Origin: Azolla caroliniana
Taxonomy: Eukaryota; Plantae; Polypodiophyta
Assembly (NCBI GenBank): GCA_043228905.1
Contig: JBHGNT010000010.1
Coordinates: 16,244,001 to 16,308,000 of the forward strand
Length of the DNA stretch: 64,000 nucleotides
Direction: 5' to 3'
Shown here: piece by piece, positions 24,715-57,951 of the stretch
Numbering within the stretch: position 1 is the stretch's first letter
Layout of the letters: each line of letters begins with the position of its first letter
Position numbers and translations under genes: made by a program
The notes under the pieces: generated by a model
Seen by the model: only the letters and a program-made list of their open reading frames with translations
What the model was told of the DNA's origin: nothing
The model's database searches: none

Positions 24715-25139
24715 TGTCAGAACCAAGGATAAAAGATAGAGTGATGGAAGAAGGATATTAGAGAACACAAGAAAGGAACGAAATACTAAGAGAAGAACGG
24801 ATGTATAAGATAGAGAAAGAAAGAGAATGGATACAAGATATGTAATGAGAGCTAAAGACTGGTGTTGATTCGAATTGATTTGAGAATACATGTATGCCCT
24901 TATTTATAGGTTCCTATAGAACAGCTTAGAGATTTCTAGAATGTTCTAGAATGTTCTAGACCTAGAATGCTCTAGGACATTCTAGAACATTCTAGAATAA
25001 TCTAGAGGTTTTACAATAATCAATGTAATACAAGAAGTAGCTTTTATTGTTTCATATAACAATAAGCTATCTTAATGGTTGAGGTTTTAAAGTATGGATT
25101 ACAAGGTTTGAGGTTCAAGTCCGGGTGACGCCATAATGG

Positions 25140-28768: not shown

Positions 28769-28794
28769 CCAAATGGCTCCTATTTTGGCCGGAC

Positions 28795-29958: not shown

Positions 29959-29983
29959 GGTTTCAGGATGGTTACAAAGGAGG

Positions 29984-29986
<3 letters not shown>

Positions 29987-30024
<38 letters not shown>
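29987..30024. repeat. (GA)n microsatellite in the I1 5' UTR
   Basis: Perfect GA run between PBS and gag start. Confidence 0.95.
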
Positions 30025-30029
<5 letters not shown>

Positions 30030-30659
30030 GAATCAAACTGTCAGAACCAAGGATAAAAGATAGAGTGATGGAAGAAGGATATTAGAGAACACGAGAAGAA
30101 AGGAACGAAATACTAAGAGAAGAACGGATGTATAAGATAGAGAAAGAAAGAGAATGGATACAAGATATGTAATGAGAGCTAAAGACTGGTGTTGATTTGA
30201 ATTGATTTGAGAATACATGTATGCCCTTATTTATATGTTCCTATAGAACAGCTTAGAGATTTCTAGAATGTTCTAGACCTAGAATGCTCTAGGACATTCT
30301 AGAACATTCTAGAATAATCTAGAGGTTTTACAATAATCAATGTAATACAAGAAGTAGCTTTTATTGTTTCATATAACAATAAGCTATCTTAATGGTTGAG
30401 GTTTTGAAGTATGGATTACAAGGTTCGAGGTTTGAGGTTCAAGTCTGGGTGACGCCATAATGGCCATGTGTTCATGACAGCCCTCACCGGGAATTAGAAC
30501 ACGAACAGGAGTGAACGACCATGCGGCCCTCAACGAGAACTGGAAGAACAAAGAGCAAAGGATTGCAGGTGAATCGGTCGACTTGACTTCTTCTATCATG
30601 AGAGATAAATAGTTGAGGTTGACCCAAAACACGACACAAATGGTAGCGCTAGCGAGAAA

Positions 30660-30967
30660 CGATGCAATCCCCACCAGGAAAGTGAGTGGTTGTGACCCCC
30701 ACCGAAACTAGAAGGTGAGTGGTCGAAATAAATCCTCGTCAAAAGAAAGTGGAGTGAAATGTAGACCAAAATGAAAAATGGAGTGCAAAAGAGCAACAAT
30801 TCGACCCCCACCAATAAAGTGAGTGGTTGTAACCCCCACCGGAACTGGGAAGGTGAGCGATCAAAAGTGATCCTCACGGAAGGAAAATGGAGTGAAACTT
30901 GAACCGAAATGAAAATGGAATAGCAATGATTCGATCCCCACCAGGAAAGTGAACGGTTGTAACCCCC
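30660..30967 (+). repeat. about 134-bp tandem repeat inside O1 (third copy resumes at 31403)
   Basis: CCCCACCA..AAAGTGA..GGTTGT.ACCCCC recurs near 30668, 30805 and 30936. Confidence 0.75.
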
Positions 30968-31402
30968 TATTGAGAGATCAAGCTCAACTAGAGTTAGTTA
31001 GTTAGTCAACCATGTAACTTCGTAGTTACCTAGATAGAATCTAGTTAAAAGTGTTGACTATATAGTCTTAAATAGGACCTTGTACTTAAGTAGGATATTC
31101 TAGATCCTCCACTCCCAGGGTCATTTAATATAGGACTTACATGGTTGTACCTATATTCTACTCACACATGTGCACCTTTGCACATGAGATGTATATATAC
31201 CTCATTGTGGGTATTTTTGTATTTGATGATGCTAATTTAATATAGAGTTAATCATCCTCCATCTTGTGTTGTTCATAAGTGTTAACTTCCTCTCTCTCTT
31301 TCTCTCACACACATACACACATATCACTTAATCTTCCACTTATTAACTTAATCATATAATTAGGTACTAATTAACTCTTGCTTAATTACCTAATTCTTAA
31401 CA
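30968..31402 (+). mobile_element. copia solo LTR
   Basis: TATTGAGAGATCAAGCTCAAC...TTCTTAACA flanked by TSD CCCCC; removing it restores GTTGTAACCCCCACCGGAACT as in the neighbouring repeat unit. Confidence 0.85.
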
Positions 31403-32279
31403 CCCCCACCGGAACTATGAAGGTGAGTGATCAAAATCAATCTGTTTGATGAAGACGACAAGAGGTGATGAAAATGATGATGTCGAAAACAAGGCAATGA
31501 AGATGAGGAAGCATCTCTAAAACCAACGATGTTGATGACGGTAACTCTAGAAGCAAGGACGGTGACAATAGTAACTCTAGAAGCAAGGGTGATGATGAAG
31601 ATGGGTAATGCTTCCAATTGGAAGAGATTCAAACTGTCAAGGACACACCAATCACGGACTATGAAGGAGCACGGATGACGAGGCTATGATCGATAAGACT
31701 ACGAGCATGGAATAGGCAGTGACAAGGCTAGGAATTGTAAACGTTATGCGTGATGAGACTATGAACTTAGGAAGCTATGGAGAGCATGAAGACAAAGATG
31801 AAGAAGGAGACAAGATGGGGTGAAACGACAACACTAGATTGATGTGTCAATGATTGGCGTTGAATCCCCTTGAAAGGGACCAAGGAGGTTACAAGTATTT
31901 ATACAAGTTCTGAGATTGAATATCTCTAGAATATACTCGAGAAATATCTCTAGAGTATACTCGTCTAGAATATACCGTACAATATTTCTAGAATATACTA
32001 ACAACTAGAATATTCTAATTCTGAAATGTATTATATGCTAGACTATAGAATGCTAAACTATTATATACAACTGCATGCTCATATCAAAATGGTTGAGCAT
32101 GACATATTGTTAATGTGAGGTTGTACGTTCAATCCTCACCAACTATGTATTTCATGTCATTGTGTCATGACACCGCCTTTTCGACCCTTCGTCTCTTTTT
32201 GTCTGGCTGTCTACTCGTCTTTCCGGCCATCGTCGTTCGCCGACCGTCTCTGTTCGTGGTCATCTCTATCTAACGACTC

Positions 32280-38100: not shown

Positions 38101-38558
38101 GAGAGACATATGTCATTGCTATGTGGGTCGTTGATGTCATAGACATATGCCACAGAGGAAGGTAGGGATTGAACCCAAGACCTCATGGTCTCTATTGGGC
38201 AAACCCTACCACTTGAGCTACATATGCATCCTTATATTTAATTCAACTTCATATAGTGTAGATTGAACATTGGAAGTTCCTAGCTTACATGCATTCTCAT
38301 TCTCTAGCTTGCATGCTTCCTCATGCGTACTCTATTGCATGCATCCTCATGCACTATTTCTAACTGGCTTACATAGCCCTACCCTCTTGTATAAATACTC
38401 ATGTGCACCTTGATTCTAATCAAGGTGTACAACACAAGTTACGGATTCTATAAGTTGAGTTCTTGTTCTTTTCCTCTCTCTTGTTCTCCAGTCTTATCTT
38501 CATTCTACTCTATTATACTTGTCCGTGACAGTTTGTACACCTTCCTTTTCTTGCTACC

Positions 38559-39596
38559 ATGTCCGGCTCCGTCGACAACCTAAACCAAATCATGGCAGCC
38601 TTGCAACAACTTCAACTAGAGAATGAAATCCTTCGGGAATCATTACGAGAGTTGCAATCCGGCACTTCAAGAAATCCACTAGCCGTCGAGTCACAACCAC
38701 CGTCGACACCTAGCCCGACCATGTCCTCTTCTCATCCATATGTCCTTGAACCAACCATTAGCCTACCCGACAAATTCAATGGCACGAGGGCGTATCTTCG
38801 TGGCTTCATCAACCAAATTCAGCTTATCATCCGATTACAGCCCCAACGGTATGCTAGCGACTTTTCTCGGGTTGGGCTTGTCGGCACGCTTCTCTCTAGG
38901 CCGGCGCAAGCGCGGTTTGCACCCTTGATCGAGACCTCATCCCTTCTCTTGGAGGACTTCACCGCTTTCATGGAGGAGCTCGAAGCGACATTTGGCAAGA
39001 TAGATCGGCGACGAACGGCACTCACAGAGCTTTATTCTGTCCAACAAGGTTCACGTCCTGCCTTGATCTACGCCTCAGAGTTCCGCCAGATTACCTGTGA
39101 TGTTAGTTGGGATGACCAAGCCCTATGCGACCATTTCTGTCGTGGTCTCTGAAATGACGTCAAGACTCTTCTCTTAAACTTCCTGGAGCCCACATCGTTG
39201 TCTCATGTAATCTCCCAAGCTGTCCTGTGTGACAATCGTCTTTTCGAACTTCGTCAAGAAGAACGGGGGACTCGCGGGTCTCAGGCTTCTTCTAGGAACG
39301 CAGCAATCACTAGGCCCTACTTGTCACCCACACCAACCTTACCATCAGCTAGTGAAAACCATACCACAATGGAGGTCGATTCCCATACCCCGATGGAGAT
39401 CAACCATGCTCGGTTCCAACCATTAACTGAAGCCCAACGCCAACATCGTTGGGACAATGGACTCTGTCTCTATTGTGGCAACCCCAGCCATGTCATCTGC
39501 CACTGCCCTGTGCGAGGCCCTCGACACCAATTCCATTGTGCATGTCTTGCGGAGGTTCCTCGACAACAGGAAAACGACCAAGTCCGGCTGCAGTAA
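38559..39596 (+). pseudogene. O2 gag with internal TGA at 39150-39152
   Basis: EPTISLPDKFNG, QQGSRPA..YASEF, LCLYCGNPSHVICHC zinc knuckle. Confidence 0.9.
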
Positions 39597-40143
39597 GAGC
39601 CATGCCGTTGGACGCTTCCCGTTACTCACCTTCTCCAGTCCGAACCGCCATTAGGAGGGTTTTCTTTGCAAGTAAGTCTTTGTTTTGGTTCGTATTAGAG
39701 ATTAGGTACTAAAGTAAGCATAAAATAAGGATATATCAATGATAGATCTAGAAAGAATAGAGAGAAAAGAGAGAAAGAAGGGTGCCGATCCACCCGACCA
39801 CCCCCGAGCGAAGGGATCGAGACGGACTCGAGCCTCGATCGGCGTCCCATACTACCGCCTTGGCGTCGAGTCGTACCTGGACGATAGCGCGCTTGCTACA
39901 AGAGTCGTTCCACTCACGGACAGAGTCTCAACGTAGTCAATGCATGCCCCAATGAGGGTAGCTAGGCCTCTTATTTATAGTAATTCTCAAGGCCCCCAGC
40001 CATGTTCACACTTGGCCTCATGGGTTGTCTCAATCCCGAGGATTAAAAGTAATCCTCCCCTTCTTTAGACTCTTTGTTTAACCCTCACACTTATCCACGT
40101 GTATAGAATACTACGACAATTCTCACCACGGGATATTATATGG

Positions 40144-43100
40144 TCATGCCCGTAACATACTCCCCCTCTTTAAAACATTGCACTCTTGCAATGGAAAGTT
40201 AGGGAAGTTAGTTCTTAGAGTCGTTTCGCGTTCCCATGTGGCATCTTTGATTGATTTATCCATCCATTTTATTTTAAATTCTCGGATTTCCTTAGCACGT
40301 AATTTTTTTGTTTTAACATCGAGAATTCTTTCTGGTACATGTGGTTTAGAAGATAAATCTTCAGAAGTAACCAGAGTTTCAGTTGTAACTGTATTGTCGC
40401 CAGAACCTAGAAGTTCTTTTAGACGACTTACATGAAAGACTGGATGGATTCCAACACCATCGGGAAGAGCGAGACGATAGGCTGATGATCCAATGCGTTT
40501 GAGGACTGTAAAAGGTCCACAAAACCGTGGGGCTAACTTAGCGCACTTACCCGTAGACAATGTCTTAGAATTGTGAGGTACACGTAAAAATACCTTCTGT
40601 CCAGGGCTGAATACACGAGGTTGCCTGTGATGATCGGCATAAAAACGCGCTCTATCTTGAGCTGTTTTTATATTATCCCGTGCAATATGCAACATATCTT
40701 GCATATCCCGAAGAAAGTTTTGCGTACTTCGCAACTCATCATGATGTATATTAACATCAATCGGGGCTCGTGGCTGAAATCCATACATCAACATAAAAGG
40801 ACTATATCCCGTCGACGTATGCTTGGAGCTGTTATAAGCAAACTCCAAAATTGGGAGGTAACGTTCCCATTTTGTTGGTTTTGCACCAACGTATGCTCGA
40901 AGCATGTCCTCAATAATTTGATTTACTCGTTCTGTCTGTCCATCGGATTGAGGATGATCCGTGGAGCTCATGCTCAACGTAGTTTCTAACTTCTTAAAGA
41001 CTTGCGTCCAGAAGTCACTAGTAAACTTCGGATCTCGGTCACTCACGATATCCATCGGTAACCCGTAAAAACGAAATAACTCATCAACGAATTGGTAAGC
41101 CAATTCAGGAGCTGTTACCGTGGTTTTAGTAGCAATAAATCTGGCCATTTTAGTTAGTCTGTCAACCACAACCCATATGGCATCATGACCTTTTTGGGTG
41201 CGAGGAAGGCTAACAATAAAATCCATGGATATACTTTCCCACTTATTATTGGGAATGTCCAAGGGATGTAAAAGTCCTGCGGCTTTAAGTCGCTCGGCTT
41301 TGTTAACCTGACATTGGTGACATTTAGTCACATAGCTATGTATGTCAGGACGCATCTTAGGCCAATAAAATTGAGTGGAGATGAGAACGAGTGTACGATG
41401 TATTCCAGGGTGCCCTGCTGAGGGTGCATCATGGCATTCAAAAAGAATTCTCTTTTTGACCTCAGGTAAATCTGGAACACAAACCTTCCCATTACGGTAG
41501 AGCAGACCGTTAGCAATGTGGAAGTATTCCTTCGAGGGTGTGGTGGTGTCTGTTCCAGACTCGACTCTTGCCCAGTATTTTGCAAAATAATTGTCATCAG
41601 GATACTTTCCTCGAAGGTGATCATAAAGATCTGATGTTATTTCAGTGAAGCTAAGCATGTTAACTTCACGGATGCGACTTAGTGCATCAGCGACAGTATT
41701 CATGGAACCTTTACGATATCGTATGGAAAAATCAAAGTCCTGGATGAGATCAGCCCATCGTGCCTTACGACCTTTCAGGTCTTGTTGGTCACAAAAATAT
41801 TTCAAGGACTCGTGGTCCGTAGTTACCACAAAGCGATTTCCATAAAGATAATGGCGCCATGTTTTGAGCGCATGTATAACCGCAAATAATTCCTTTTCTT
41901 GAACGGTATACCGACATTGAGCAGAATCAAGTTTCTTACTCTCGAATGCTATTGGTTTACCATCTTGATACAAGACAACACCTATAGCATAATCGCTTGC
42001 GTCGGTTTCAACCTCAAAAGGTTTTGAAGGATCGGGTAAAAGAAGTGAAGGAGCCTTGCATACCAAGTCCTTGAGTTCCTTAAAGGCGAGGTCTAGTGTA
42101 GCATTCCACACAATAGGTTTTGTAGACTTACGCGTTTGACCTTTTAGAAGATCAGTAAACGGCGTCGTCAATTGTGAGTAATTACGAAGAGATTTTCGCA
42201 AAAATCCGACAAAACCAAGGAATGATCGAACTTCTCGAATATTCCGAAGAGTGGGCCAAAGTTTGATTTTCTCGATGCGAGAAGGATCAATTTCAACTCC
42301 TCGTTCGGTTATGAGATGTCCAAGATAAGTAATTGATTTCTTGAAGAACTCACATTTTGAGATCTTCGCGTAAAATTGTTTGTCACGCAATATTTGTAAA
42401 ACAAAGCGGACATGTCTAGCATGTTCTTGTAATGTACGGCTATAAACTAAAATATCATCTAAGAAGATAACGACAAATTTTCCAAGTTGTTCTCGGAAAA
42501 TGTCATTCATTTCTTGTTGAAATGTAGTCGGAGCATTGGTCAAACCAAAAGGCATAACCAAAAACTCATAATGACCGTAGCGCGTACGAAATGCTGTTTT
42601 AGGAACATCGTCCTCACTTATTCGTATTTGATGGTAGCCAGTACGGAGATCAAGTTTCGTAAAATACCGAGCTCCCTGGAGACGGTCAATTAGATCGTCA
42701 GCCCGGGGCAATGGGTACGAATTCTTGATCATCACTTTATTCAAGCGTCGGTAATTAATACACATACGCCATGTGCCCTCTTTCTTTTTAACCAAGAGAA
42801 CTGGTGCACCCCATGGAGATTTACTATAACGTATATAACCCATTCGTAAATAGTCCTTAAGTTGCTTAGCTACCTCATCCTCTTCAGATCGACTTAGGCG
42901 ATACGGAGGTATACTAATGGGTGCAATGCCAGGTACAATATCTATATGATGGTCTATATTACGTTTAGGAGGTAAACCATCGGGTAGTTCACTCGGAAAA
43001 ACATCACGAAAATCGTTTACGATTTCATCAAGTTGTTTTTGTTCAAAATATGTTAATTGACCCGAGACATTATCGATATTGTAAACGTGAATGTCCGGAT

Positions 43101-43416
43101 CAAGTACACAATAAAATAACGTAGAACAAGACAACTCGGATATTGATGGACACGAGGAAACAATCGAGAGGGATTGTTTTGTTACACATTGAATAAAATG
43201 CGTACAATCGTTGAGTACAAAAGAAATGGAATGGCGAACCCAATCAATAAATAAAGAAGAGCTTTTATTATAAAACCAGGGATAACCCAGTATTACATCG
43301 GTGGTACTAAGATTCATTACATGGAAGTCTACTTCCTCTATATAGGTATCAATAGAAATTCCTAAAGAATGAATCGCCCCGTTGATGTGTTGTACTCTTC
43401 CATCAGCCAAGTGCAC
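40144..43416 (-). CDS. N2 pol (PR C-term, RT, RNase H, integrase, chromodomain); upstream in-frame TGA at 43453-43455 inside the protease
   Basis: 1090-aa ORF: [53 protein letters not shown]...ATWE; LFDSGSSHNF in same-frame ORF 43453-43773. Confidence 0.92.
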
Positions 43417-43933
43417 CGTGTAGGTGTGATCACTTACGGTGGGTTGGATTCCTCATATCTGTACCAAACGATCATTCACAAAATTGTGTGAGCTTCCCGA
43501 ATCAAATAAAAATTGTACGGGAGATCCATTGATATACCCGTTTGCACGTAGTAAATCATTGGGACCCAATACATAATGAGGGAAAGAACATTGACAATTA
43601 CTCAAATGATGTGTATAGACCTGAAGGACATTAGGAATCTGACCTTTATGATCTGTAGCTTTAGGTTTGGCGTCGTGCTCTTTTCGTTGGAGCTTACGAC
43701 ATTGCTCTTTTGTATGACCCTTCTTTTTGCAGAATACGCAAAAAGGATGTTGTCGCTTATAATCGCGATCCATGAATTCGTTGGGTGTCTTGCGTTTCCC
43801 AACGAATTGCGACTGCTTAGTCCCGGGCGCTTCGTTGGGTTTGTTATGGTCCTTCTTCGAAGTGCGTTGATAGCCCTAGCAATAACCCTAGCAAGCTTTC
43901 TTCTTTATCCTTCTTTCTTTTTCCCCCGCGGTT

Positions 43934-45061
43934 ATGGAGTCGGTCAGCAAGCAAGAGTATATGCGTGTCCTTTCGGAGCTCGATATGCTCACCACTAAGT
44001 TTGTGGCATTAGAGCAAGAAAATCAAAGGCTACTCGGGGATCTTCAACAAGTCAGTACTGAGAAAGCTCATCAATATGAGGAGTTATCACAACGGGTTCA
44101 TCAACTTGAGGCTACTATATTAACATTACGAGAACAAGCGGCGGGGGTTCAAAACTCCCCAAGGGAACCAAAGATTAGCCTCCCTGCCAAGTTTGATGGT
44201 ACCAGATCTCTCTTTCGAGGTTTCCTGAATCAAGTTCATTTGGTGATTCAGTTACATCCCAATCGGTATCCAACTGATGCTGCCCGTGTGGGATTAATAG
44301 GAACCTTGCTAAGCGGTACAGCGTTAGCATGGTTTGCACCACTTCTTGAGAAGAAATCACCATTACTGGAGGATTTCGAGGCATTCGTTAAGGAGTTTCA
44401 AGCTAGTTTTGGAGATACGGATAGCACTAGGACTGCAATAAACAAGATTCGAAGACTCCGACAAGGAGATCGTCCCGCTTCAGCTTATGCCGCAGATTTC
44501 CGTCTCTTGGCATGCGACATTCCTTGGGATGAGGCAGCCTTAATGGATCAATTCCGTCAGGGTTTGCGTAACGATGTCAAAGATCTTCTTCTTACTTTCC
44601 ATGAAGATCCAAAGTCTCTTACTGAAGCTATTAGCCGAGCTGTGCGATGTGATAATCGCCTATTTGAGCGACGTTCTGAACGTCAACAAATGTTACGCCG
44701 CCAACCGGAACAGACATACGCTTCTATAGTCACCACACCGCCACAAGGTTCTAGACCCGTTACGAGGGATGGTCCCACTCCGATGGAAATAGAGTCGACA
44801 CAACGTCGAGGGCCCTTATCAGATGCTGAGAAACAACGACGTCGGGCGCATCGCCTATGCCTCTACTGTGGTGGTCCAGGACATATAGCTGTGAATTGTC
44901 CACATAAACCCAGGCGTCAAGTTTACCAAGTAAGTGCACATGACAACCCTACATCAAGTTCTACTATCACTTCTAATAACTTAAGTACTAAGCCTACTAG
45001 CCCATGCCATGAGAATAGATTTGATGTCTTGAGCCAATTAGAGGATGTGTTAAACGAATAA
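43934..45061 (+). CDS. N3 Gag (PEG10/Ty3-like capsid plus CCHC knuckle)
   Basis: 375 aa: EPKISLPAKFDG, WFAPLL, LRQGDRPASAYAADF, LCLYCGGPGHIAVNC. Confidence 0.92.
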   Translation: MESVSKQEYMRVLSELDMLTTKFVALEQENQRLLGDLQQVSTEKAHQYEELSQRVHQLEATILTLREQAAGVQNSPREPKISLPAKFDGTRSLFRGFLNQVHLVIQLHPNRYPTDAARVGLIGTLLSGTALAWFAPLLEKKSPLLEDFEAFVKEFQASFGDTDSTRTAINKIRRLRQGDRPASAYAADFRLLACDIPWDEAALMDQFRQGLRNDVKDLLLTFHEDPKSLTEAISRAVRCDNRLFERRSERQQMLRRQPEQTYASIVTTPPQGSRPVTRDGPTPMEIESTQRRGPLSDAEKQRRRAHRLCLYCGGPGHIAVNCPHKPRRQVYQVSAHDNPTSSSTITSNNLSTKPTSPCHENRFDVLSQLEDVLNE

Positions 45062-48000
45062 GTCCGGCCAAAATAGGAGCCATTTGGTTGGACCATCCTA
45101 GTTATGTAGAGTCAGTACCTAGTTGTGGTTCCATTTCATCAAATCAAGTTAGTAGAGTTTTTTCTGCACAAGTCGAGCTTAGCACATCTACAGGTCATCG
45201 CGCCCTAGCCTCTGCCCTCCTAGATTCCGGAGCCAATTCTTGTTTCATGGATCGCGAGTTTGCATTGACTCAAAACATCATCTTGAAAAAACTCCCAAAC
45301 CCAGTAGCTATAGGAGTCATCGATGGTCGCCCTATAGCATTAGGAGATATAGTCGAAGAGTCTGAACCAATTCGTGTAGTCCTAGGTAATTTGGCTAGTG
45401 TCATCTCATTTAACATCATTAGTAGTCCGGAGCACTCTCTAGTTCTTGGTCTTCCTTGGTTTGAGTTACATAACCCAACCATTGATTGGAGAAAAAGAAC
45501 TATTGAAGAGGTCACCGTACAATCCAAGTCTCTTGAAGCTCCAACTAAGGATCTAGGATCCCCCACAATTTCAACAATCTCTATACATCAATTACGAGAG
45601 GATGGAAGAAAGGAAGACATGATGGTATTTGCGGTTTTAGCAACTCCCTCATCTAGCTCACAAGAATTGGGGGTCCAACTACCAAAGAAGTACATAGAAT
45701 TCTCCGATGTGTTCGATAAGGTGAAGGCTAATAGACTACCAGAGCATCGACCATATGATTGCCCAATTGATTTGCAGCCAGGAAAAGAGCCTCCATGGGG
45801 ACCAATTTATAATCTTTCACCCACGGAGTTAGAGGTTCTTCGAGAATATATCAATGAGAACTTGGCAAATGGTTTTATCCAACATTCAAAATCTCCTGCT
45901 GGTGCACCCATCTTTTTTGTTAAGAAGAAAGATGGTACGCTTCGTATGGTCGTGGATTATCGAGGCTTGAATAAAGTGACCGTTAGAAACCGATATGCTC
46001 TCCCATTGATCTCAAGCCTTCTAGAACGCCTCAGTGAAGCAAAGTATTTCACGAAGTTAGATCTTCGAGGTGCCTACAACCTTGTTCGAATTCGTCCTGG
46101 GGATGAATGGAAGACGGCGTTCCGCACTCGCTATGGTCATTTTGAGTACACAGTGATGCCTTTTGGCCTCACAAATGCACCAGCAGTCTTCCAACATATG
46201 GCGAATGATATTTTTCGAGACTTCCTCGATATCTTCATCATTGTTTACCTGGATGATATCTTGATCTACTCAAAAACTCAAGAAGAACATGATATACATG
46301 TTCGCCAAGTTTTGCAACGGCTACGAGAGTATGGTCTCTATGCAAAATTGGAGAAGTGTAGTTTCGACCAACGTCAAGTGGAGTTTTTGGGGTACATAGT
46401 CTCTTCAAATGGCATCTCTATGGATCCATCAAAGGTTCAAACAATTTTGGATTGGCAAACACCACAGTCCGTGCGAGATGTGCAATGTTTTTTGGGGTTC
46501 GCAAACTTTTATCGCAAGTTCATCAAAGACTATTCAAAAATTGTGTTGCCCCTCACTCAACTGACGCACAAGAATCGATCATTTGTATGGAGTATAGATG
46601 CGAACTCTGCATTTGAGGGTTTAAAGCAAGCATTTACATCCGCACCAATCTTAATCCATGTCGATCCAATGAGGCGCTTTATACTTGAAGCTGATGCATC
46701 GGATTTCGCACTCGGAAGTGTACTATCCCAAATTGGTGATGATGGTGAACTGCATCCGGTGGCTTTTCACTCACGAAAATTTGAAGCCGCAGAAATCAAT
46801 TATGAGATTCACGACAAAGAGCTTCTTGCCATTGTGGATTCTTTTCAACAATGGCGTCATTTTCTGGAGGGTTCTTCTCAGCAGATTATTGTCTACAATG
46901 ATCATAAAAATCTAACATACTTTCAAAGTGCTCGAGTCTTGAATCGACGACAAGCTCGTTGGGCGCAGTTCTTAACTCGTTTCGATTTTGTAATTCTATA
47001 TCGCCCTGGGATGCAACAAGGAAAAGCAGATGCTTTATCTAGACGTTCGTATATGGAACTTCAACCTGGAGAGGCCGCATTTGAAAGCCAAAAGCAAATC
47101 CTCTTAGGTCCTGATCGTCTACGAATAATGGCAATGCATACCATCAACACACCGGGAGATTCAAGGCTTCTTGATTCCATTCGTGAGCAAATTGCGACTG
47201 ATGCGTTCGCCCAAGAGGTTTTGAGCCATATTATCCCAAATCGTGCATCTAGCTCCCAAACTCAAAATCCTCGTCTAGACTACACCCAGTTTAGTTGGCA
47301 TGATGGGTTACTTTTTCGACAAACTCTCTTGTATGTGCCTGACGGTCCTTCTCGACTCAAAGTCATGCAACAATGTCATGACACACCAATGGCGGGACAC
47401 TTCGGCATCCACAAGACTTTTGAGTTGATTTCTCGCCGATATTGGTGGCCACGGTTTCGCCATTTTGTTACGGATTATGTTCGTAGCTGTGATACATGTT
47501 GCCGATCAAAAAAGCCTCGACATCATCCATATGGCTTATTACAGCCAATGCCTATTCCGGAGAGCCCATGGAAATCTATTTCCTTGGACTTTATTACGGA
47601 TCTTCCACCTTCCAAGGGATTTGATTCGATTCTCACGGTTGTCGATCGTTTTACGAAGATGGCACATTTCCTTCCATGCACAAAGACCATTACTAGTCAA
47701 GAGACAGCTGATTTACTCATGCGGGAGGTGTTTCGCCATCATGGTCTTCCGGATGATATTATCAGTGATCGGGGTCCCCAATTCATCTCGAAATTTTGGC
47801 GGCACATGTTCAGACTCTTACATACTTCTTGTAAACTCTCTTCCGGCTACCATCCAGAGACTAATGGGTAGAGTGAGCGCACCAACCAAACAGTCGAGCA
47901 ATATCTACGTTGTTTTGTCAACTATCAACAAGATGATTGGGTGGATTTACTACCTTTGGCAGAATTTGCTTATAACAACTCCGAGCATTCTTCTACTGGA

Positions 48001-48693
48001 TATTCCCCATTTTTTGCAAACATTGGGTACCATCCTCGTTGGACGATGCTTGAACATCCTGAACTCCCAAAAAACCCAGCTGCTGAAGATCGGCTCACTC
48101 GACTCCAAGAAGTTCAGGATATGCTTTTGCATCATTTATGTGAAGCCCAAAACACTCAAAAGAAGATTGCTGACCGTCATCGGCGTGATTCATCGACTAC
48201 ATTTCAAGTAGGCGATCGTGTATGGCTCTTACAAGGTAGCATTAAAACGACCCGACCTTGCTACAAATTGGATTATCAACGTTTTGGCCCATATGTCATA
48301 AGTGGTAAGATCAATGATGTGACATTTCGTCTTGATCTTCCTCCTCATATGCGTCTTCACCCGGTCTTCCATGTTTCACTTTTGGAGCCTTACACAACGA
48401 GCTCTATTCCGGGTCGTGTTACACCTCCCCCACCTCCAATTGACGTTTCCAATGGCTCTGAATATGAGGTTGCCGCTATCCTCAACTCCAAGATCATTCG
48501 CAACAAACTATACTACTTGGTTGATTGGTTAGGCTATACACCTAATGATCGAACATGGGAGCCTGCCGAACATCTTGCCAATGCCTCCGACATGGTTGTT
48601 GCATTTCACAACCAATATCCTCATAAACCAAGTCTGAACTCTTTTCTTCCGACTCGTGCAACTCGTCATCGAAAAGGGGGGATAATGTCATGA
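45049..48693 (+). pseudogene. N3 pol in the -1 frame (PR-RT-RH-INT-chromodomain), single in-frame TAG at 47869-47871
   Basis: LLDSGANSCF, YLDDILIYS, ADASDFALG, HDTPMAGHFG, SLDFITDLP, YEVAAILNS..YYLVDWLGY..TWEP; ORFs 45088-47871 and 47941-48693 share one frame. Confidence 0.92.
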
Positions 48694-49032
48694 AGACATA
48701 CATCTTGGCTTATCATGACATTCATCTTGGCGAACCAGGAATCGAACCCATAACCTCTTGGTTTACATATTGTACTTTAACCATTGTAATAACATATGTG
48801 AGATGTAATCATAATAATTATATGTTTAGTTATTACGAGATATTTAGAACATTCTAGAATCTAGAATGTTCTAAATATCTCGTAATAACTAAACATATAA
48901 TTATTATGATTACATCTCACATATGTTATTACAATGGTTAAAGTACAATATGTAAACCAAGAGGTTATGGGTTCGATTCCTGGTTCGCCAAGATGAATGT
49001 CATGATAAGCCAAGATGTATGTCTTCATGACA
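48686..49032. repeat. perfect 347-bp palindrome made of the LTR U3 half
   Basis: 173-bp arms are exact reverse complements around a single central base at 48859 (ATTCTAGA-A-TCTAGAAT). Confidence 0.95.
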
Positions 49033-49742
49033 ATAGCGAAGAACTATCTCAACGGCCTCTTCGAAGGATTTTGGATCCTTATCGTGCACTATCCAGTGAT
49101 AGTCCGAATTGGGGATGCCATTGACAAAACAAGCTATTAACCAACTGTCCCCTTCTAGACCCGATTTTTGGATTTGGGTTCTAGCATGGTGGACATAATC
49201 TTCTAGCGAGGAAAACTTCCTGCTAGAGAGGTTCATTAAAGCTTGTGCTGCCTCGGTTCGAGAGGGAGGTTGTAGAAATTGACCCTTGAAAACTGTGACA
49301 AAGTCTGTCCAGGTCTCGGGCAATCTCCCCAAAGTTCGGAGCCCACGCCACCAAGCGGCGGCCTTACCCCCTAGTTCTCGGCCGACATATGCAATCTTCG
49401 TACTATCTGGGGTGGGATAGAGCTCAAAATGAGACTCCCATCGGCCCAGCCACGTGCAGATTGCTTCTTCGGTTCTTTCCTTTTTATCTCCCGTAAATGG
49501 CTTTACGACAAAGGATGGTTCACCCTGACGCTCATCAGGTCTATTAATCTCATTTTGGAGACTAATGACTCGTGCCTCGAGAGCACTTTGAGATTGCCGA
49601 AATTCGGTCAACTGCTGCGCGGTTGAACTAAGGAAATGTTGTACTTGTAAAATATACGCCTCAATGGACATTGTCCCAGGAGGATTTCCTTGAGGTCTTT
49701 CCGCTTGAGCGGAGGGCATCGGGTCGTTATTTTGAGCCATTG
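49033..49742 (-). pseudogene. N2 gag N-terminal part, interrupted by N3
   Basis: VKPFTGD, LGGKAAAWW, WTDFVTVFKGQF retrotransposon-gag motifs; zinc knuckle FCVFCKKKGH lies at 43453-43773. Confidence 0.85.
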
Positions 49743-50936
49743 AATGATTATTTCTGGCAAAGAAATAAGATAAGGTCAGACAAATAGTCATAACATCTTG
49801 TCGTGGTGTAAACATATCATGGGCAAACATTAATCGATATCATGATCTCACGTCAATACCCCTCTAGACGTATGAGATGAGGTTCAAGATCAGGTTACTA
49901 TGGTAACACAGAGGTGTTTTAAAAACCATGGGGGTGACAAATGAATGCCTTTCCCTGATCTCTATATCGATTTTTTTCATGGCGGCTCCCCGAGGCTCAA
50001 CCATGTATGTTCGCGTCATGAATAGTTTATACACGAAAAAAATGTTAACAATAACTATGTTTCTGTGCCCACATATGTGGTTTCGGCTCTTTAAGTCCTA
50101 TTACGAGGACCCCGAAGTGCACTTAGACCTAAAGTCTAAACATGTATTATAGTCATATGTATCAACGATGTTGTATGGTGTTGGTCATATTTGAACTCGA
50201 GACCTCGAGGACAAATACATTAAACACTTGAGCCAACCAAGTAGATTGCGCGTCTTGAATGTTTAATGTTTGAGGCGTATTCGAGATATGCGAGGCATTT
50301 GCCCCTATATGTTTTTTTTAAAAGAAACATATAGGTCAAGTGGCCTTATTTCTCCCTCATTTATTACCCACTATGGTTGTACGCTACCTACCCTCAAGCC
50401 TCGTAAGTACAATGGCATATGCCAAAGTGTAACCTAATGGTCAAGCCGAATGAGCCCTTGTGTCTTCGTAGGCTCATGTGGCCCATCACATGGTCACGTC
50501 ATTACGAATGGCGCTCGTAAGAACGAGCTCATGGTGGCATCGTATCCATGTAACGAGGGGAGATGTTGGATACGTGTGTCATTAGAGCGACCCTACTTGA
50601 TGTGGATCAAGCCCGACGTATTCAACATCATTTTGGCTATACTAGGTTCGTTACGTAACGAAAGATCAAAGTGACCAACGGGAATTGCAACAATAAAAAT
50701 TGTTGATAAAAGGGATGGTGACAACGCCATTCTCACAAAAATGTGAGGACGGCCACCAAAATCCTCTCCCCAATTAGGAAAACATTTGATATGAATCACG
50801 TAATCTAAAATATACACATATGTCAATATATCACATATATACGATCAGAGACGTATATAAGTGACCACATATGCGTATACTAAATGAATCGTTTTTTTTT
50901 ATATAGCCAACAATGATGTATTCAGGATACGTAATC

Positions 50937-51178
50937 GAGGCATATACCTCTACGCACACGAAACATCCGAAAATAAGGTTAAGCGTAATTCGCAATTGAG
51001 GTATTGACCTCTTACGCATAGTAAATCCAACGCATATCATTTCGAACGAAGCGAGGTATTGACCTCGTACGCGAACGTAACATATGTTCGTGAACGTAAT
51101 ACGCAATTGAGGTAATAACCTCGTACGCATACGACACTCATCACATATGATTTATATGTCAAACGAGGTATTGACCTC
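50937..51178. repeat. five 14-bp hairpin motifs at about 56-bp period in the N2 5' UTR
   Basis: GAGGTATTGACCTC-type at 50937, 50998, 51053, 51109 and 51165. Confidence 0.85.
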
Positions 51179-51904
51179 GTGGACATATGTAAACGTTTAA
51201 GATAACCAATTAAATACCACGTCAACATCATTGAATATATGAAAAAAAAACTACATATTAAGTATACACATGTATAGAAGGGAGAAGAAAAATTAGATAA
51301 AAAATTAAGGAAAATTTACCGAAGTTCTTTCGCTAATCCTTGTCTGCATGAAGGCGACCGCACAACGATCAATCGCCATCCCACGCGAAGACAAAAAGAA
51401 AACCAAAAGAAACGTTAGTACATAGGCTCTGATACCAAATATTAGAGATTAGGTACTAAAGTAAGCATAAAATAAGGATATATCAATGATAGATCTAGAA
51501 AGAATAGAGAGAAAAGAGAGAAAGAAGGGTGCCGATCCACCCGACCACCCCCGAGCGAAGGGATCGAGACGGACTCGAGCCTCGATCGGTGTCCCATACC
51601 GCCGCCTTGGCGTCGAGTCGTACCTGGACGATAGCGCGCTTGCTACAAGAGTCGTTCCACTCACGGACAGAGTCTCGACGTAGTCAATGCATGCCCCAAT
51701 GAGGGTAGCTAGGCCTCTTATTTATAGTAATTCTCAAGGCCCCCAGCCATGTTCACACTTGGCCTCATGGGTTGTCTCAATCCCGAGGATTAAAAGTAAT
51801 CCTCCCCTTCTTTAGACTCTTTGTTTAACCCTCACACTTATCCACGTGTATAGAATACTACGACAATTCTCACCACGGGATATTATATGGTCATGCCCGT
51901 AACA

Positions 51905-54900
51905 GTTCGACTTCAATACATTCTCATGCCTTGCTCGACTCCGGAACATCTACTTGCTTTATCGATAAATCGTTTGTATGCGCACATAATATCCCCACCG
52001 TCCGCACATCACAACCCATATCCGTTGAAGCGATCGACGGTCGGGTTCTCTCATCGGGGGCAGTTACCAAAGCCACTATCCCGTTGGTACTTCAAATCGG
52101 GGCACACCAGGAGGAACTAACGTTCTACCTCATCGCGACCCCCCAACATCTGATTGTGTTGGGGCTATCTTGGTTGGAGACACACAATCCAACGGTGGAT
52201 TGGTGTAGCCGCTCCATCACTTTTCCAACAACGCCAATTCCTGCTCGGTCACGACACTCTTGATTCTGTTGCAGTCGAGTCTAGTTTGGTCGCTACACTG
52301 GTTGTTGTGTCAAGGAACGTCACTGTTCCTGTCACCAATTTACCCATTCGATATAGCGACTTTTCCGACATCTTCGAAAAGCGGAATGCCGATCGATTAC
52401 CAGCTCATCGCCCTTACGATTTCCCAATAGAACTCCAAGCTGGCGAGCATCCCCCATTCGGTCCTATCTATGGGTTATGTGAACCTGAACTTGAGGCTCT
52501 CCACACATATTTGGTTGAGAATCTCGTGAAGGGCTTCATTCAACCCTCCAAATCACCGGCCGAGGCACCAATCTTATTTGTCAAAAAGAAGGACGACTCC
52601 TTACGCTTATGTGTCGATTATCAGGGTCTCAACAAAGTTACGGTACGTAATCGTTACCCCCTACCCTTAATTCCAACGCTCCTCGATCGACTCCGAACGG
52701 GGCATATCTTCTCCAAAATCGACCCTCGAGGGCGCCTACAATTTGGTGCGCATCAAGCCTGGGGACGAGTGGAAAACAACTTTTCAGACGCGCTATGGAC
52801 ATTTCGAGTACAAAGTGATGCCTTTCGGCCTTACCAACGCTCCGACCATCTTCCAGCACATGATGAACGATATTTTTCGTGAATATCTTGATCATTTCGT
52901 GGTCATCTACCTTGACAACATCCTAGTTTTTTCTTCCGACTGGGAGGAGCACACACACCACGTCCGACTGGTTCTCACCAAACTCCGAGAATATGGGCTC
53001 TTCGCCAAAAGTGAGAAATGTGAATTCGATCGGACCTCTATGGAATTACTGGGTTACATGATCTCACCTATTGGGATCACAATGGATAAACGCAAGGTCG
53101 CCGCAATCATTGATTGGCCTCTCCCGACTCGGTTGAAAGAGGTACAATCGTTTCTTGGTTTTGCAAATTTTTATAGACGATTTATAGACTAGTTCTCATC
53201 CCTAGTCCAACCTCTCATCCAACTTACCCAGAAAGATACTCCATTTCTTTGGACCCTGTAGCACATAATGCTTTTAATGCCCTCAAAGCAACTTTTCTCT
53301 CCGCCCCCTTGTTAGTCCACTCTGACCCCACCCGCCCTTTCCAAATTGAAACCGACGCCTCCAACTTTGTCATAGGTGCGGTCTTGTCCCAACCTGATGA
53401 CGATGGCACCCTACATCCGATCGCCTTCTACTCTCGGAAGTTTACAGCCTCGGAAATCAATTATCCGGTCTATGACAAGGAGCTCGCAACTATCATCTCG
53501 GCCTTCGCTGAATGGCGACCCTATTTGGCCGGGGCGCAACATCTTATTCAGGTGGTGACCGATCACAAGAATCTCATCTACTTCACCACCACTCGTACGT
53601 TGAATCGGAGGCAGGTTCGTTGGTCATCTTTTCTTGCCGACTACAACTTCGAAATCTTGTTCCGACCCAGCGTTAAACATGGGAAAGCGGATGCTCTCTC
53701 TCGGTGACCCGATTTTGAATTGCGCCCATGCGACGACGCTTATTCTCAGCAATCACATTGTTTATTGCGTCCCGATCAACTCCACATGTTCGCAACCTAT
53801 CTGTTGCACGATGATTCCTTGCTCAACGAGATTTCCCAAGCAACCACGTCGGACCCTTTCGCTACTGACATCATGGCGCGCCTCAACAACCCATCCCAGG
53901 AATGGCAAAGCTCGGATCTCAATCACTTTACAACTCACGATGGGCTACTCTATCATAATCAACTCCTTTACATACCAGATGGCCCATGTCGCCTCCGAGT
54001 TCTACAAACTTGCCATGATGATCCTCTTGTTGGACACTTTGGGGTCGCCAAAACGTTGGCATTGCTTTCTCGAGGGTTTTGGTAGCCTCAACCTTGGAAA
54101 TTGGTCAAAGAATTTATCAAAACTTGTGACGTCTGTGCTCGCTCCAAAGCGGCTCACCATCATCCATATGGCCTTCTACACCCACTTCCAATCCCCAGTC
54201 AACCTTGGGCATCTCTCTCCATGGACTTTATCACCGACCTTCCTTGAGTCGGTGACCATGACACAGTGCTAGTGGTCGTCGATCGGTTTTCGAAGATGGC
54301 TCACTTTGTCCCATGTTCGAAAACCATTTCGGGGGAGGAGACAACTGCCCTTTTTCTGAAAAATGTCGTTCGCTTACACGGTTTCCCTGAGGATGTCACT
54401 TTTGATCGAGGTCCTCAATTTATCTCCCACTTTTGGCGCCGACTGCTACAGACATTTGGGACTCTTGTGAACTTGTCAACCGCGCACCACCCTCAAACTG
54501 ATGGCCAAACCGAAAGAGTCAACCAAATCCTCGAACAATACCTCCGTTGTTCAGTTAGCTACCAACAAGACAATTGGGTGGACCTCCTTGCCATGGCGGA
54601 ATTTGCCTACAATAACAATATCCATGCCTCAACAAAAGTTTCCCCATTATTTGCAAATTACGGTTTCCACCCTCGTTTCAGCATTTCCATTCCGGAGATA
54701 TCCATCAATCCGTCGATCGAGAAGTGTGCCCACACCTTACAAGATGTCCACCGTGACCTCTCCCTCGAGCTTCATGCTGTTGGCAAACAATATAAAGCTC
54801 ACACTGACCGACATCGCTTAGTCGCGCCGACCTTCGCAGTCAGTGACATGGTTTGGTTGCTATGTCAGTATATCGCAACCACCCGTCCCTGTGCGAAGCT

Positions 54901-55280
54901 CGACTACAAAAAGTTAGGCCCCTTCCATATCCTCGAGCGTGTTAACCCAGTCGCCTTCCGGTTAGCGCTTCCCCCCACATTTCGGCTTCACAATGTTTTC
55001 CACATCTCTCTCCTCGAACTCTACATCCTTCTCGCATTCTGAGACGCCAACCTCCTCTACCGCCACCCGTGGAATTATCGACAGGTGAGGAGTATGAGGT
55101 TGACCGGATCCTCAACTCGCTTGCATCGACGACGACTTCAATACTTGGTCTTATGGAAAGGTTACCCTCTTTCGGATGCCACATGGGAACCAGTTACACG
55201 CTTACAAAATGCACCGGAGGCAATTCGCATTTTTCACCAACAATACCCCCATAAACTGGTCGCGGGTGTTAGGAGGCGGC
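51905..55280 (+). pseudogene. O2 pol (PR-RT-RH-INT-chromodomain), multiple stops and frameshifts
   Basis: [71 protein letters not shown]. Confidence 0.92.
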
Positions 55281-57951
55281 CCTCTATTGAGCAAACCCTA
55301 CCACTTGAGTTACATATGCATCCTTGTATTTAATTCAACTTCATATAGTGTAGATTGAACATTGGAAGTTCCTAGCTTACATGCATTCTCTATTGCATGC
55401 ATCCTCATACGTACTCTATTGCATGCATCCTCATGCAATATTTCTAGTTGGCTTACATAGCCCTACCCTCTTGTATAAATACTCATGTGCACCTTGATTC
55501 TAATCAAGGTGTACAACACAAGTTACGGATTCTATAAGTTGAGTTCTTGTTCTTTTCCTCTCTCTTGTTCTCCAGTCTTATCTTCGTTCTACTCTATTAT
55601 ACTTGTCCGTGACAGTTGAGATATATGTGGGTCATTGTACACAATTAGTTGGCATATATCAGGAAAACATTTTACGGTTTAAATGAGGTAGAAACAACAT
55701 GCTTAAGCTGGAAGCAACAAATTGGCACAAAAAGAGGAGTCACGCCCGTAATCTCGCAAAAACTTATTGGCAACTCCCCAAACACAACCAAAACACACAA
55801 TGGAAGACTACAGAGAACTCATTGTGTTGAGAGGCGGTTGCCATTACATGAGATAGAGAAGGTTCGGTGTTTGCATTGTGATGGCTTAACATTGACTTCG
55901 AGGGACTCTAATGCTGATTGTTGCAAAAACTGTAGGTGTATCTTGCCATCCTCTAAACAAGAACCATGGTCTTTGACTTTTTGTTTAGAACTTGGATTTT
56001 TTTAAGTTTGTGGTGTTGGGAGTTTGTATATGTACAACTTCGAGATTTTGATCTTTGAACATGTATGAAATGTGGACAAAATTTTGTGATCATTGAAGTT
56101 TCTAGTTATCTCAAAAAAAGTTGGTGGCTGAAAATTTAATCTTCATTTAAACTTGAGAAGGTTAGGTGATTGCAATCATCCTTCATGCTTTGTTTACAAC
56201 ATGTGATCTTTGGAGTTTTTAGTCTCTTTGTTGCAAACATTGGTGGCTAAACTTTTTATGCTGGTTATAAATTTATTTGTGGATGACCCAATTGGTGGCT
56301 AAAATCAGTGACATTTTGTTTACATTTAGTGCTAGACCAAGTTTTTGGTGAGTTTTTATATCTAAAACGACAGATTTTGTATTCTGAAAAGGTTTTGGAT
56401 AAGTTTCGGGAATTTTAGATTAAAAAAAAGGCCTCTTTAGAAATTTCAACCAGGTTTGATGCAGATAGCCGAGTTTTAAATTCGGTCATGGGTCAGAGAA
56501 AAATCGACCGGGTTAACAACTTTGTGCTGAGGCTAGTCAGAGACAGGTTAGATGTGACAGAGGTTGGTTAGAGCCGGTTTGGATTAGGGGGGGGGGGGGG
56601 ACTTTTTTGGGATAATATGATCCAACAACGAAGATCACACACGCTTATTGAAACGGGGTCCACACAGTTTGTGATAGCAAGATTTCCTCACCATGCCTCG
56701 TATATAGGAACATGGGCGGCATATATGTACAATACTATCATAGTTCCTAATATTCGCATATGTCCGATATGGTAGACCTATACAAACGTTTGTATATGTT
56801 CGCGTATAATATGCGATATTCATTTTATTTCTTATTTTTTAGGAAACGAACATGGCGCATGACCTCAAAATTTTCAACAGGTTCCTATGTAAAGATGAAG
56901 AAACAAAAATACGTAAAGAAGAAGACGATAGACAAATATAAATATATAGAAAGATTCCTATATGACGAAGAAAAGATGATGATGATGAAGAAACAGAGAT
57001 ATAGAGAAGAAGATGGTGGAGCGGAAGAAAAATGTATGGAAGACAATAGAGAAGAAGTGGAAGAAGAAGAAAGAAGAAAAATTGATCACACAATGCAATA
57101 TTAGAAAGACTCGGTTTTGAATCAGGGGAGTAAAACACACAATGTGAAAGAAGAGGAAGGAAACCACATATATATAAAGGGAGAAGAAAATCTCAATATA
57201 TAGAATAAGAAAAGAAACACAAATTAGTGGAGAGAAGAAAAACACAACGCAGTAGAATGTAAATCCGAAGAAGAAGAAATACTTCTTTTTGAATATGTAG
57301 ATTCTATATTGAAGATAGACTATGCATTATAACCATAGACTTCTTGAAACCTTAGTAATTGACTACGTGTTGTTGATCCATCTTGAAACCAAATGTTCAT
57401 GACATATTGTCATCGATTAACACCTCGCTACATAACATTTTTCTTGCGATAAGAATGTTTGTTTTGGGGGAATTCTATATCGAGTTTGGTCAAATTTGCT
57501 ATATGTGATGGGTTATATCATACATGTGATGGCTAGAACTATCATACTTGGGGCCATTTCACGTATGAGTATAATACGAATATGCACGTATGAGTATAAT
57601 ACGAATACTCACGTATGGTATGTATGTGACGAATGGGAAGTATGGCTAGAACTATGAGTACAAATGTGATTTTGGTTCCATATAGAAGAAGATTCAAGAA
57701 ACACAGGAGCATATTCATGACAGGAAATGTAATGTGGTACTACGTAGACGGTAGTAGTAGCAAGTACGTAAAGTAGATCGAGTCTCCGGCGAAACGGAAA
57801 CTCATCATCCATCTGATCAGAGAATACTATAGAAACACGACGCATTCTTCTGCTCCTTCTTCTCCATGGCTACTTCAGCAGATACTGACAAGCCTTAAAG
57901 ATCCTAGGATGTGACGCGTCTTCTTCTTCCTCCTTTGATCCTCTGGTCCTG

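What the first reader, a model, noticed from the sequence alone, without database searches (positions are those of the whole stretch)
48686..49032. Perfect 347-bp LTR palindrome: retrotransposon apparently flipped inside-out
Seen: N3 ends in U3-half plus its exact inverted copy (173-bp arms, 1-nt centre inside a TCTAGA cluster). The R/U5 half, 5' LTR, PBS and a matching TSD are all missing, and gag starts about 3 nt from the left junction. Inference: with LTRs of form A-P-B (P palindromic), inversion between the two P sites gives A-P-A' at one end and B'-P-B at the other. The first is observed; the second would have been deleted as an unstable hairpin together with the left TSD. This implies N3 originally inserted on the minus strand. 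Read-through pol transcripts would end in a 173-bp dsRNA stem, a potential siRNA source against the whole family.
Basis: partly seen in the sequence, partly recalled or inferred. Interest (0 to 1): 0.7.

Follow-up and report, generated by a model that had tools for sequence, protein, structure and literature searches.

The report
Flipped retrotransposon with hairpin end
One copy of a jumping gene ends in a perfect 347-base mirror repeat yet still sits between intact 5-base insertion footprints, likely because its middle flipped between two short built-in palindromes and the mirror repeat at the other end was then likely deleted; it is probably a one-off fossil, and its role as a source of silencing RNA is untested.

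Summary
The palindrome is real: 48686-49032, two identical 173-bp arms, 1-nt centre. It is the U3 half of the LTR of a Tcn1-like chromovirus (N3) plus its inverted copy, folded at a short native quasi-palindrome P (13-bp arms, 4-nt loop in normal copies). Two first-reader claims are wrong. The TSD is intact (ATAGC, 43870-43874 and 49033-49037): uninterrupted host-element contigs join across it in 4 of 4 runs with no host base lost. Gag starts 59 nt, not 3 nt, after the left junction; the 5' LTR and about 31 nt of leader are replaced by a 5-nt locally templated filler. A mis-copied cDNA is the main rival. No read spans this copy's own junctions. siRNA output is untested; both native promoters are gone, so only read-through from the host element could make the hairpin. 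The scan noted a different inverted-LTR Gypsy palindrome with a 5-bp TSD in another genome (unchecked).

The parts
43870..43874 (+). Left copy of the 5-bp target-site duplication (ATAGC) in the gag of host element N2
   Evidence: host-family contigs cover up to 43874 and then continue with the sequence found at 49038; joint 43869-49033 in 4 of 4 runs
43875..43879 (+). 5-nt filler CCTAG, a direct copy of 43887-43891; makes a 12-bp tandem repeat with one mismatch (43870-43881 / 43882-43893)
   Evidence: Covered by neither family in any of 4 runs while both neighbours are covered; repeat shown
43880..43933 (+). Retained 54 nt of the N3 leader; about 31 nt of leader with the self-priming site, and the whole 5' LTR, are missing before it
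   Evidence: Matches leaders of L003, L004, L025, L033, L037 and others; family contigs begin to match at 43880 with a loose end reaching back to the GTTTG that follows the LTR
43934..45061 (+). N3 gag, open (375 aa)
   Evidence: Pfam Retrotrans_gag, Ty3_capsid, zf-CCHC; no internal stop
45025..48693 (+). N3 pol (RT, RNase H, integrase, SH3, chromodomain), broken by one premature stop at 47869
48672..48685 (+). Polypurine tract before the LTR start
   Evidence: Read; same tract before the L001 LTR
48686..48858 (+). Left arm: U3 half A plus first arm of P, sense orientation
   Evidence: 82% to L001 LTR with PPT
48846..48872 (.). P site, the fold point: 13-bp arms around a 1-nt centre (4-nt loop in the normal family LTR; one AAT unit fewer here)
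   Evidence: tables 4, 7, 8; spacer spectrum
48860..49032 (-). Right arm: inverted copy of A, ending on the canonical LTR terminus at the host junction
   Evidence: 0 other letters against the high-depth family LTR contig over 48846-49032 in X1 and X8 (table 8)
49033..49037 (+). Right copy of the target-site duplication (ATAGC)
39693..51904 (-). Host element N2, a minus-strand chromodomain-bearing Gypsy element; its 5' LTR (51440-51904) is the nearest intact LTR that points into the palindrome
   Evidence: LTRs differ at 4 of 465 sites, TSD GTTCG; gag and pol domains

Best explanation
N3 is a Tcn1-like retrotransposon copy between intact 5-bp target duplications whose right end is a perfect U3 mirror repeat; it likely inserted normally on the minus strand, its middle likely flipped between the short palindromes (P) of its two LTRs, and the reciprocal mirror repeat at the left end was likely deleted from its base. 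Steps: (1, shown) the insertion site carries an exact 5-bp duplication and no host loss, and the right end is a true LTR terminus; two-ended integrase action is inferred from this. (2, inferred) P of one LTR matches the reverse complement of P of the other at 28 of 30 positions, 5.2 kb apart; exchange or end joining there turns A-P-B...A-P-B into B'-P-B [leader gag pol PPT] A-P-A'. This could have happened in the chromosome or in the cDNA before insertion. (3, inferred) the roughly 630-bp B'-P-B hairpin was skipped: one break lies exactly at the predicted hairpin base (the TSD edge), the other 31 nt past the opposite base; the host 3' end ATAGC likely primed on the first 4-of-5 match in the retained leader (ATAAC, 43882), copied a few bases and re-aligned, leaving the 5-nt filler typical of polymerase-theta-type joining. 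The copy is a dead end: no TATA, R, U5 or priming site remains, so it cannot be transcribed or reverse-transcribed as an element. It most likely does nothing; if N2's promoter reads through, the RNA would fold into a 173-bp stem.
For: Exact TSD and zero host loss in 4 of 4 runs, and 5 of the 10 host-family proteins fetched (of 28 hits) run unbroken across the site. One-ended integration in HIV usually gives duplications of hundreds to thousands of bp, or deletions, instead of 5 bp (PMC5041404, sections 10 and 12 read). Native P and B half exist. The centre base reads T on the minus strand, as in the sense-strand 1-nt-spacer variant in the L019 LTR, so the loop likely came from a minus-strand LTR. 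Both left breakpoints sit at or near the predicted hairpin base; pausing at a hairpin base and slipping to a short direct repeat is an established deletion route (PMC4134008, passages). Direct-repeat templated insertions of 5 bp or more are a Pol-theta scar (PMC7165422, passages). Other family copies show a reciprocal 1-kb inversion in pol at a 5-bp inverted match (joints 46998/48004 and 47003/47999; X3, one of them also X9), so inversions at short matches occur in this family.
Against: Needs two rare events, and the B'-P-B intermediate is not observed anywhere: no trace of B' is left at 43875, and none of 55 related loci holds an A-P-A' or B'-P-B. A perfect 173-bp palindrome survived while its partner was lost; the longer arms of B'-P-B are only an argument. 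The centre is 3 nt shorter than the common 4-nt loop (13 of 20 close TCTAGA pairs), which needs a further slip or loop breakage. Identical arms do not prove one element, since the arm equals the high-depth family LTR contig. The left breakpoint also lies where a mis-copied cDNA would end (rival 1). The slippage and Pol-theta papers concern archaeal polymerases in vitro and mouse cells.
Confidence: 0.55

Rival explanations
1. One reverse-transcription error. Plus-strand strong-stop DNA, which starts at the U3 terminus, stalled in P, annealed by P's self-complementarity to P on a genomic RNA and copied it backwards through PPT, pol, gag and leader, running off near the self-priming site. Integrase inserted the single good U3 end; host repair joined the other end.
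For: One event explains why the inverted arm stops exactly at the U3 terminus, why the loop reads as a sense LTR on the minus strand and why the other end falls 31 nt into the leader with no LTR. The family is self-priming (PMC6317226 passages). Host-joined ends are often truncated and use short homology (PMC5041404).
Against: The duplication is exactly 5 bp with no host loss, the same length as in normal neighbours (GCCCT, GTTCG); one-ended events usually give much larger duplications or deletions. Such a cDNA would be double-stranded only at one end.
Confidence: 0.18
2. Two copies. A minus-strand copy or solo LTR made the TSD; a second, plus-strand copy inserted into its B' half; both inverted LTR pairs then collapsed (P-to-P on the right, hairpin-base deletion on the left).
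For: The arm is identical to the high-depth family LTR contig, so two young copies would also give identical arms. Same-family nesting is reported as preferred (PMC6911290 abstract passage).
Against: Needs an insertion into a 300-bp target plus two deletions; the same passage says LTRs are not commonly targeted; no second TSD or remnant is seen.
Confidence: 0.1
3. A cDNA with a normal left LTR and a folded-back right end (A-P-B ... A-P-A', two U3 ends) was inserted by both ends in plus orientation, and the left LTR was deleted later.
For: Gives the exact TSD and the A-P-A' end. An unchecked note of this scan describes a Gypsy palindrome with two inverted LTRs and a 5-bp TSD in another genome.
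Against: Offers no reason for a deletion that starts exactly at the TSD edge and ends just past the LTR-leader border.
Confidence: 0.08
4. Assembly or library artefact (fold-back read, missed adapter, chimeric join of repeats).
For: No contig or read spanning this copy's own junctions was seen in the runs laid; best run shares 0.72 of the words.
Against: A fold-back artefact would mirror on through PPT and pol; here the mirror ends at the LTR terminus and rejoins host gag at the very base where it was left 5.16 kb away, with a 5-bp duplication that matches the family's empty site, plus a plausible repair scar.
Confidence: 0.05

Closest known systems
Tcn1-clade chromoviruses of mosses and club-mosses (PMC2864245, PMC6317226; passages read)
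   Same: Gag and pol with chromodomain, PPT, TG-start LTR, 5-bp TSD, self-priming site in sister copies
   Different: This copy has no 5' LTR, no R/U5 at either end, and a U3 mirror repeat as its only LTR
Aberrant, one-ended retroviral integrations (ASLV, HIV; PMC5041404 sections 10, 12 read)
   Same: One normal LTR-host junction and one truncated end with short homology and added bases
   Different: Those usually have large duplications or deletions of host DNA; here the duplication is exactly 5 bp, and the normal end is an inverted U3
Hairpin-base slippage deletion and Pol-theta templated insertion (PMC4134008, PMC7165422; passages read)
   Same: Break at a predicted hairpin base, short imperfect direct repeat, 5-nt directly repeated filler
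   Different: The hairpin itself is inferred; enzyme not testable here
Mu killer of maize (PMC3440606, start of abstract seen)
   Same: Rearranged transposon copy with an inverted duplication that read-through from a flanking promoter could turn into hairpin RNA
   Different: Mu killer has a ~4-kb hairpin of transposase sequence and proven silencing; here 173 bp of U3 only, a retrotransposon promoter as the only driver, and no RNA evidence
Inversion-type autointegration products of retroelements (lead from scan note e1-10279157; otherwise recalled)
   Same: Internal region inverted relative to an LTR
   Different: No LTR end is joined to the element's own internal DNA; the fold lies inside the LTR at P and the LTR terminus joins host DNA

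Membership tests
Tcn1-clade chromovirus | Ty3/gypsy order RT-RNaseH-integrase with C-terminal chromodomain | tested here: met
   Pfam RVT_1, RT_RNaseH, rve, Chromo E 9e-12
Tcn1-clade chromovirus | No tRNA PBS; self-priming site complementary to the start of R | tested here: met
   At family level: 11 of 24 LTR-leader junctions (28 rows, 4 dropped as pol-internal) have an 11-12-nt complement about 30 nt after a TATA-like box, with three different covarying sequences; many of the other contigs lack R. The site is deleted in N3 itself
Tcn1-clade chromovirus | Aromatic cage in the chromodomain | tested here: inconclusive
   Y, W and Y at the expected-looking positions read by eye from the translation; not aligned to a reference
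Tcn1-clade chromovirus | Placement in the Tcn1 branch of an RT-RH-INT tree | not tested
   No reference set was fetched; hence 'Tcn1-like'
Intact LTR retrotransposon insertion | 4-6-bp target-site duplication | tested here: met
   ATAGC both sides; empty site in 4 of 4 runs
Intact LTR retrotransposon insertion | Two direct-repeat LTRs with U3-R-U5 | tested here: not met
One-ended aberrant integration | Host duplication or deletion of non-standard size at the aberrant end | tested here: not met
   Exactly 5 bp, no loss; the paper says 'usually' larger, so not exclusive
Autointegration product | LTR terminus joined to the element's own internal sequence | tested here: not met
   Terminus at 49032 joins host gag; terminus at 48686 follows its own PPT as in normal copies
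Pol-theta templated insertion scar | Insertion of 5 bp or more directly repeating nearby flank | tested here: met
   CCTAG at 43875-43879 repeats 43887-43891, 12 nt away
Pol-theta templated insertion scar | Dependence on Pol theta | not testable with these tools
   Historical event
Mu-killer-type hairpin silencer | Inverted duplication of element sequence able to form a long stem | tested here: met
   Predicted stem over the whole palindrome, -301.9 kcal/mol, z -45
Mu-killer-type hairpin silencer | Read-through transcript, siRNA production and silencing in trans | not testable with these tools
   No RNA run could be laid

The most novel reading that the evidence does not exclude
The short U3 palindromes common in Tcn1-like LTRs act as built-in flip sites: they repeatedly turn copies inside out, producing perfect U3 hairpins that host-element promoters read through, so the family seeds its own Mu-killer-like silencers aimed at its promoter region.
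Probability: 0.1. Interest if true: 0.65.

Novelty: new variant of a known kind. Interest (0 to 1): 0.33.

Why it matters
As it stands this is a single well-preserved fossil whose junctions record an unusual route of retrotransposon decay: inversion at a 30-bp internal palindrome, then loss of one mirror end with the TSD untouched. Such copies are invisible to LTR finders that look for direct repeats. If the route recurs and the hairpins are transcribed, it would give a concrete, testable origin for the first silencing RNAs against an LTR family in non-seed plants; in Physcomitrella, retrotransposon siRNA loci were not explained by single inverted repeats, while many 21-nt loci were (PMC2600652 passages).

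Tried and rejected
No whole genome is held, so no genome-wide count of A-P-A' or B'-P-B ends was possible. No RNA holder listed. In one search none of 4 runs covers 43875-43879 and no listed piece bridges the left junction; no listed piece spans the centre with both arms (tables are cut; contigs drop rare variants, and these runs share at most 0.72 of the words, so they may not carry this copy): no verdict. Dating the flip from arm identity fails: at 0.25-0.43% divergence (2 of 805 sites in four 99+% pieces; half the N2 LTR divergence) the chance of zero arm differences is 0.42-0.23. Rfam hits to MIR2630 and other miRNA models are below gathering score and reflect the hairpin only. A tRNA-like T-loop motif in U3 (recalled, seen by eye) was not supported by Rfam or ARAGORN. 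The 55 metagenome loci held no N2 relatives and no long LTR palindrome. Rejected: 'TSD deleted', 'gag 3 nt from the junction', autointegration, and a native pol-transcript stem (no N3 promoter left). Paper searches for a described case listed nothing matching by title or abstract start; the library lacks most subscription papers, so this is no proof of absence. Scan look-ups by sequence and by place found nothing. Table S1 of PMC5041404, which lists each aberrant provirus and might show how often a 5-bp duplication survives one-ended insertion, was not read.

Full report
Observation. The palindrome is exactly as described: 48686-49032, 173 identical bases on each side of an A at 48859, the centre lying between two TCTAGA hexamers. 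Apart from AT microsatellites the next-longest perfect arm in the window is 11 bp, and in 55 related loci (212,512 bases) 16 bp. The left arm follows the polypurine tract and the chromodomain end of a plus-strand Ty3/gypsy pol; gag is open and pol has one premature stop at 47869. This element (N3) sits in the gag of a minus-strand Gypsy element (N2; LTRs 39693-40157 and 51440-51904, 4 of 465 sites different, own TSD GTTCG), itself nested in a third element.

What the normal LTR looks like. A relative at 97% identity over the internal region (L001) carries a full LTR of about 480 bp: the A half, a TCTAGA cluster, then TATA box, R and U5. In public contigs one high-depth record per run matches 48846-49032 with an extra AAT behind 48857 (4 of 4 runs) and then leaves the window for B sequence; in X1 and X8 it has no other difference (tables 4, 7, 8). 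So the native P has 13-bp arms around a 4-nt loop, and matches its own reverse complement at 28 of 30 positions (worked out by hand from those tables). U3 quasi-palindromes are common in the group: 9 of 13 LTRs scanned had a self-inverted match, 7 of them in U3. Of 20 close TCTAGA pairs, 13 have a 4-nt spacer and 2 a 1-nt spacer: this centre and a native LTR in L019, where the spacer is T on the sense strand. The window centre is T on the minus strand, so the loop likely belongs to a minus-strand LTR.

The TSD is intact. ATAGC lies at 43870-43874 and 49033-49037. Contigs of uninterrupted N2-family copies join 43869 to 49033 with five letters fitting either side in all four runs (5, 4, 4 and 6 contigs); on the short stretch, host-family cover ends at 43874 and its loose ends continue with the sequence at 49038. 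Five of 10 N2-family proteins fetched (chosen from 28 hits as likely to reach the site) run unbroken across it. No host base is lost.

The left junction. N3-family cover begins at 43880 in all four runs, with loose ends reaching back about 30-31 nt to the GTTTG that follows the LTR in this group. That lost stretch holds the priming site, which is not a tRNA PBS: in 11 of 24 LTR-leader junctions it is an 11-12-nt complement of the R start, with covarying sequence, as predicted for Tcn1 (PMC6317226 passages). Between TSD and leader lie 5 nt (CCTAG) covered by neither family. They repeat 43887-43891, so that 43870-43881 and 43882-43893 form a 12-bp tandem pair with one mismatch. ATAAC at 43882 is the first 4-of-5 match to ATAGC in the retained leader. 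This has the form of a directly repeated templated insertion (PMC7165422 passages). Gag starts at 43934, 59 nt from the junction.

Mechanism. An exact 5-bp duplication with an LTR terminus at one side points to two-ended integration; host-completed, one-ended insertions of HIV usually show much larger duplications or deletions (PMC5041404 sections 10 and 12; its Table S1 not read). If both ends were once LTR termini, the simplest history is a minus-strand copy whose middle inverted between the two P sites, giving B'-P-B at the left and A-P-A' at the right. B'-P-B (about 630 bp by the L001 lengths) would have its hairpin base exactly at the TSD edge and at the LTR-leader border, which is where the two breakpoints fall (0 and about 31 nt away). 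Pausing at a hairpin base and re-aligning at a short repeat beyond it is an established deletion route (PMC4134008 passages). Other copies of the family show a reciprocal 1-kb inversion in pol at a 5-bp inverted match. All of this is inference from end products: the intermediate is not seen, and the timing (cDNA or chromosome) is open. Confidence 0.55.

Rivals. A single reverse-transcription error (plus-strand strong stop priming at P on RNA, running off near the priming site, one-ended insertion) explains the ends with one event but has to produce an exact 5-bp duplication by chance (0.18). Two copies nested in opposite orientation cannot be excluded by arm identity, because the arm equals the family's common LTR (0.10). 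A cDNA with two U3 ends and later loss of the left LTR leaves the breakpoints unexplained (0.08); a scan note on a Gypsy palindrome with inverted LTRs and a 5-bp TSD in another genome (unchecked) suggested keeping it. An artefact is unlikely because the mirror stops at the LTR terminus and rejoins the host in register (0.05), but no read support for this copy was obtained.

Function. The palindrome folds as one stem (z -45), but it lacks the TATA box, R and U5, and the 5' LTR is gone, so N3 has no promoter of its own. The nearest intact LTR pointing into it is N2's 5' LTR, 2.4 kb away on the minus strand; a transcript from there would carry the stem and then antisense N3. Whether it exists is untested. 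The stem covers only 173 bp of U3. In Physcomitrella, retrotransposon-derived 23-nt loci were not explained by single inverted repeats, while many 21-nt loci mapped to the arms of one (PMC2600652 passages). It would work like Mu killer (PMC3440606, abstract start) only if read-through and siRNA were shown.

Verdict. Real, better defined than first reported, and most likely a one-off rearranged fossil of a Tcn1-like element. Searches listed no paper describing this LTR flip, within the limits of the library. New variant of a known kind; interest 0.33.

Noticed in passing
window 46998-48004 (other family copies, runs X3 and X9): Reciprocal joints on opposite strands show a ~1-kb inversion inside pol in some other copies, at a 5-bp inverted match.
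   Followed up: partly
window 48945-48996 and mirror; similar stretches at 38150-38200 and 24385-24415: U3 halves of several LTR families carry a stretch that looks by eye like tRNA D- and T-loop motifs on the antisense strand (motif recalled); Rfam and ARAGORN found no tRNA.
   Followed up: partly
window 39693-40157 and 51440-51904: Both N2 LTRs read TG...TA, not TG...CA, between GTTCG duplications; N2 has a tRNA-type PBS-like stretch next to its 5' LTR, unlike the Tcn1-like elements.
   Followed up: no
window 38130-55617: Three-level nest (N1 > N2 > N3). N1's right LTR matches the left only from 55282/38190 on and seems to lack its PPT and first ~55 bp (read by eye).
   Followed up: no
window 24715-30479 inside 23928-32172: A sister Tcn1-like element with normal direct LTRs holding 5-6 TCTAGA each and TSD GCCCT, inserted in a 46-bp tandem array of another element.
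   Followed up: partly
window 38422-38546; L008, L009, L011-L015, L017, L029, L033: Self-priming site and R start covary between families (three different 11-12-nt pairs), direct sequence support for self-priming in plant Tcn1-like elements.
   Followed up: partly
window 4484-7009: Single long PPR-protein reading frame, the only host-type gene among the 20 frames scanned.
   Followed up: no
window 8336-8827 and 20567-21075; 13035-13226 and 21367-21555: Copia-type fragments in opposite orientations, 74-76% alike.
   Followed up: no
L023:4330-4904; L044:9090-9467 (also L046): A cluster of short perfect hairpins in L023 and a degenerate ~380-bp palindrome (67%) in L044/L046, probably foldback or MITE-like DNA unrelated to the LTR.
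   Followed up: no
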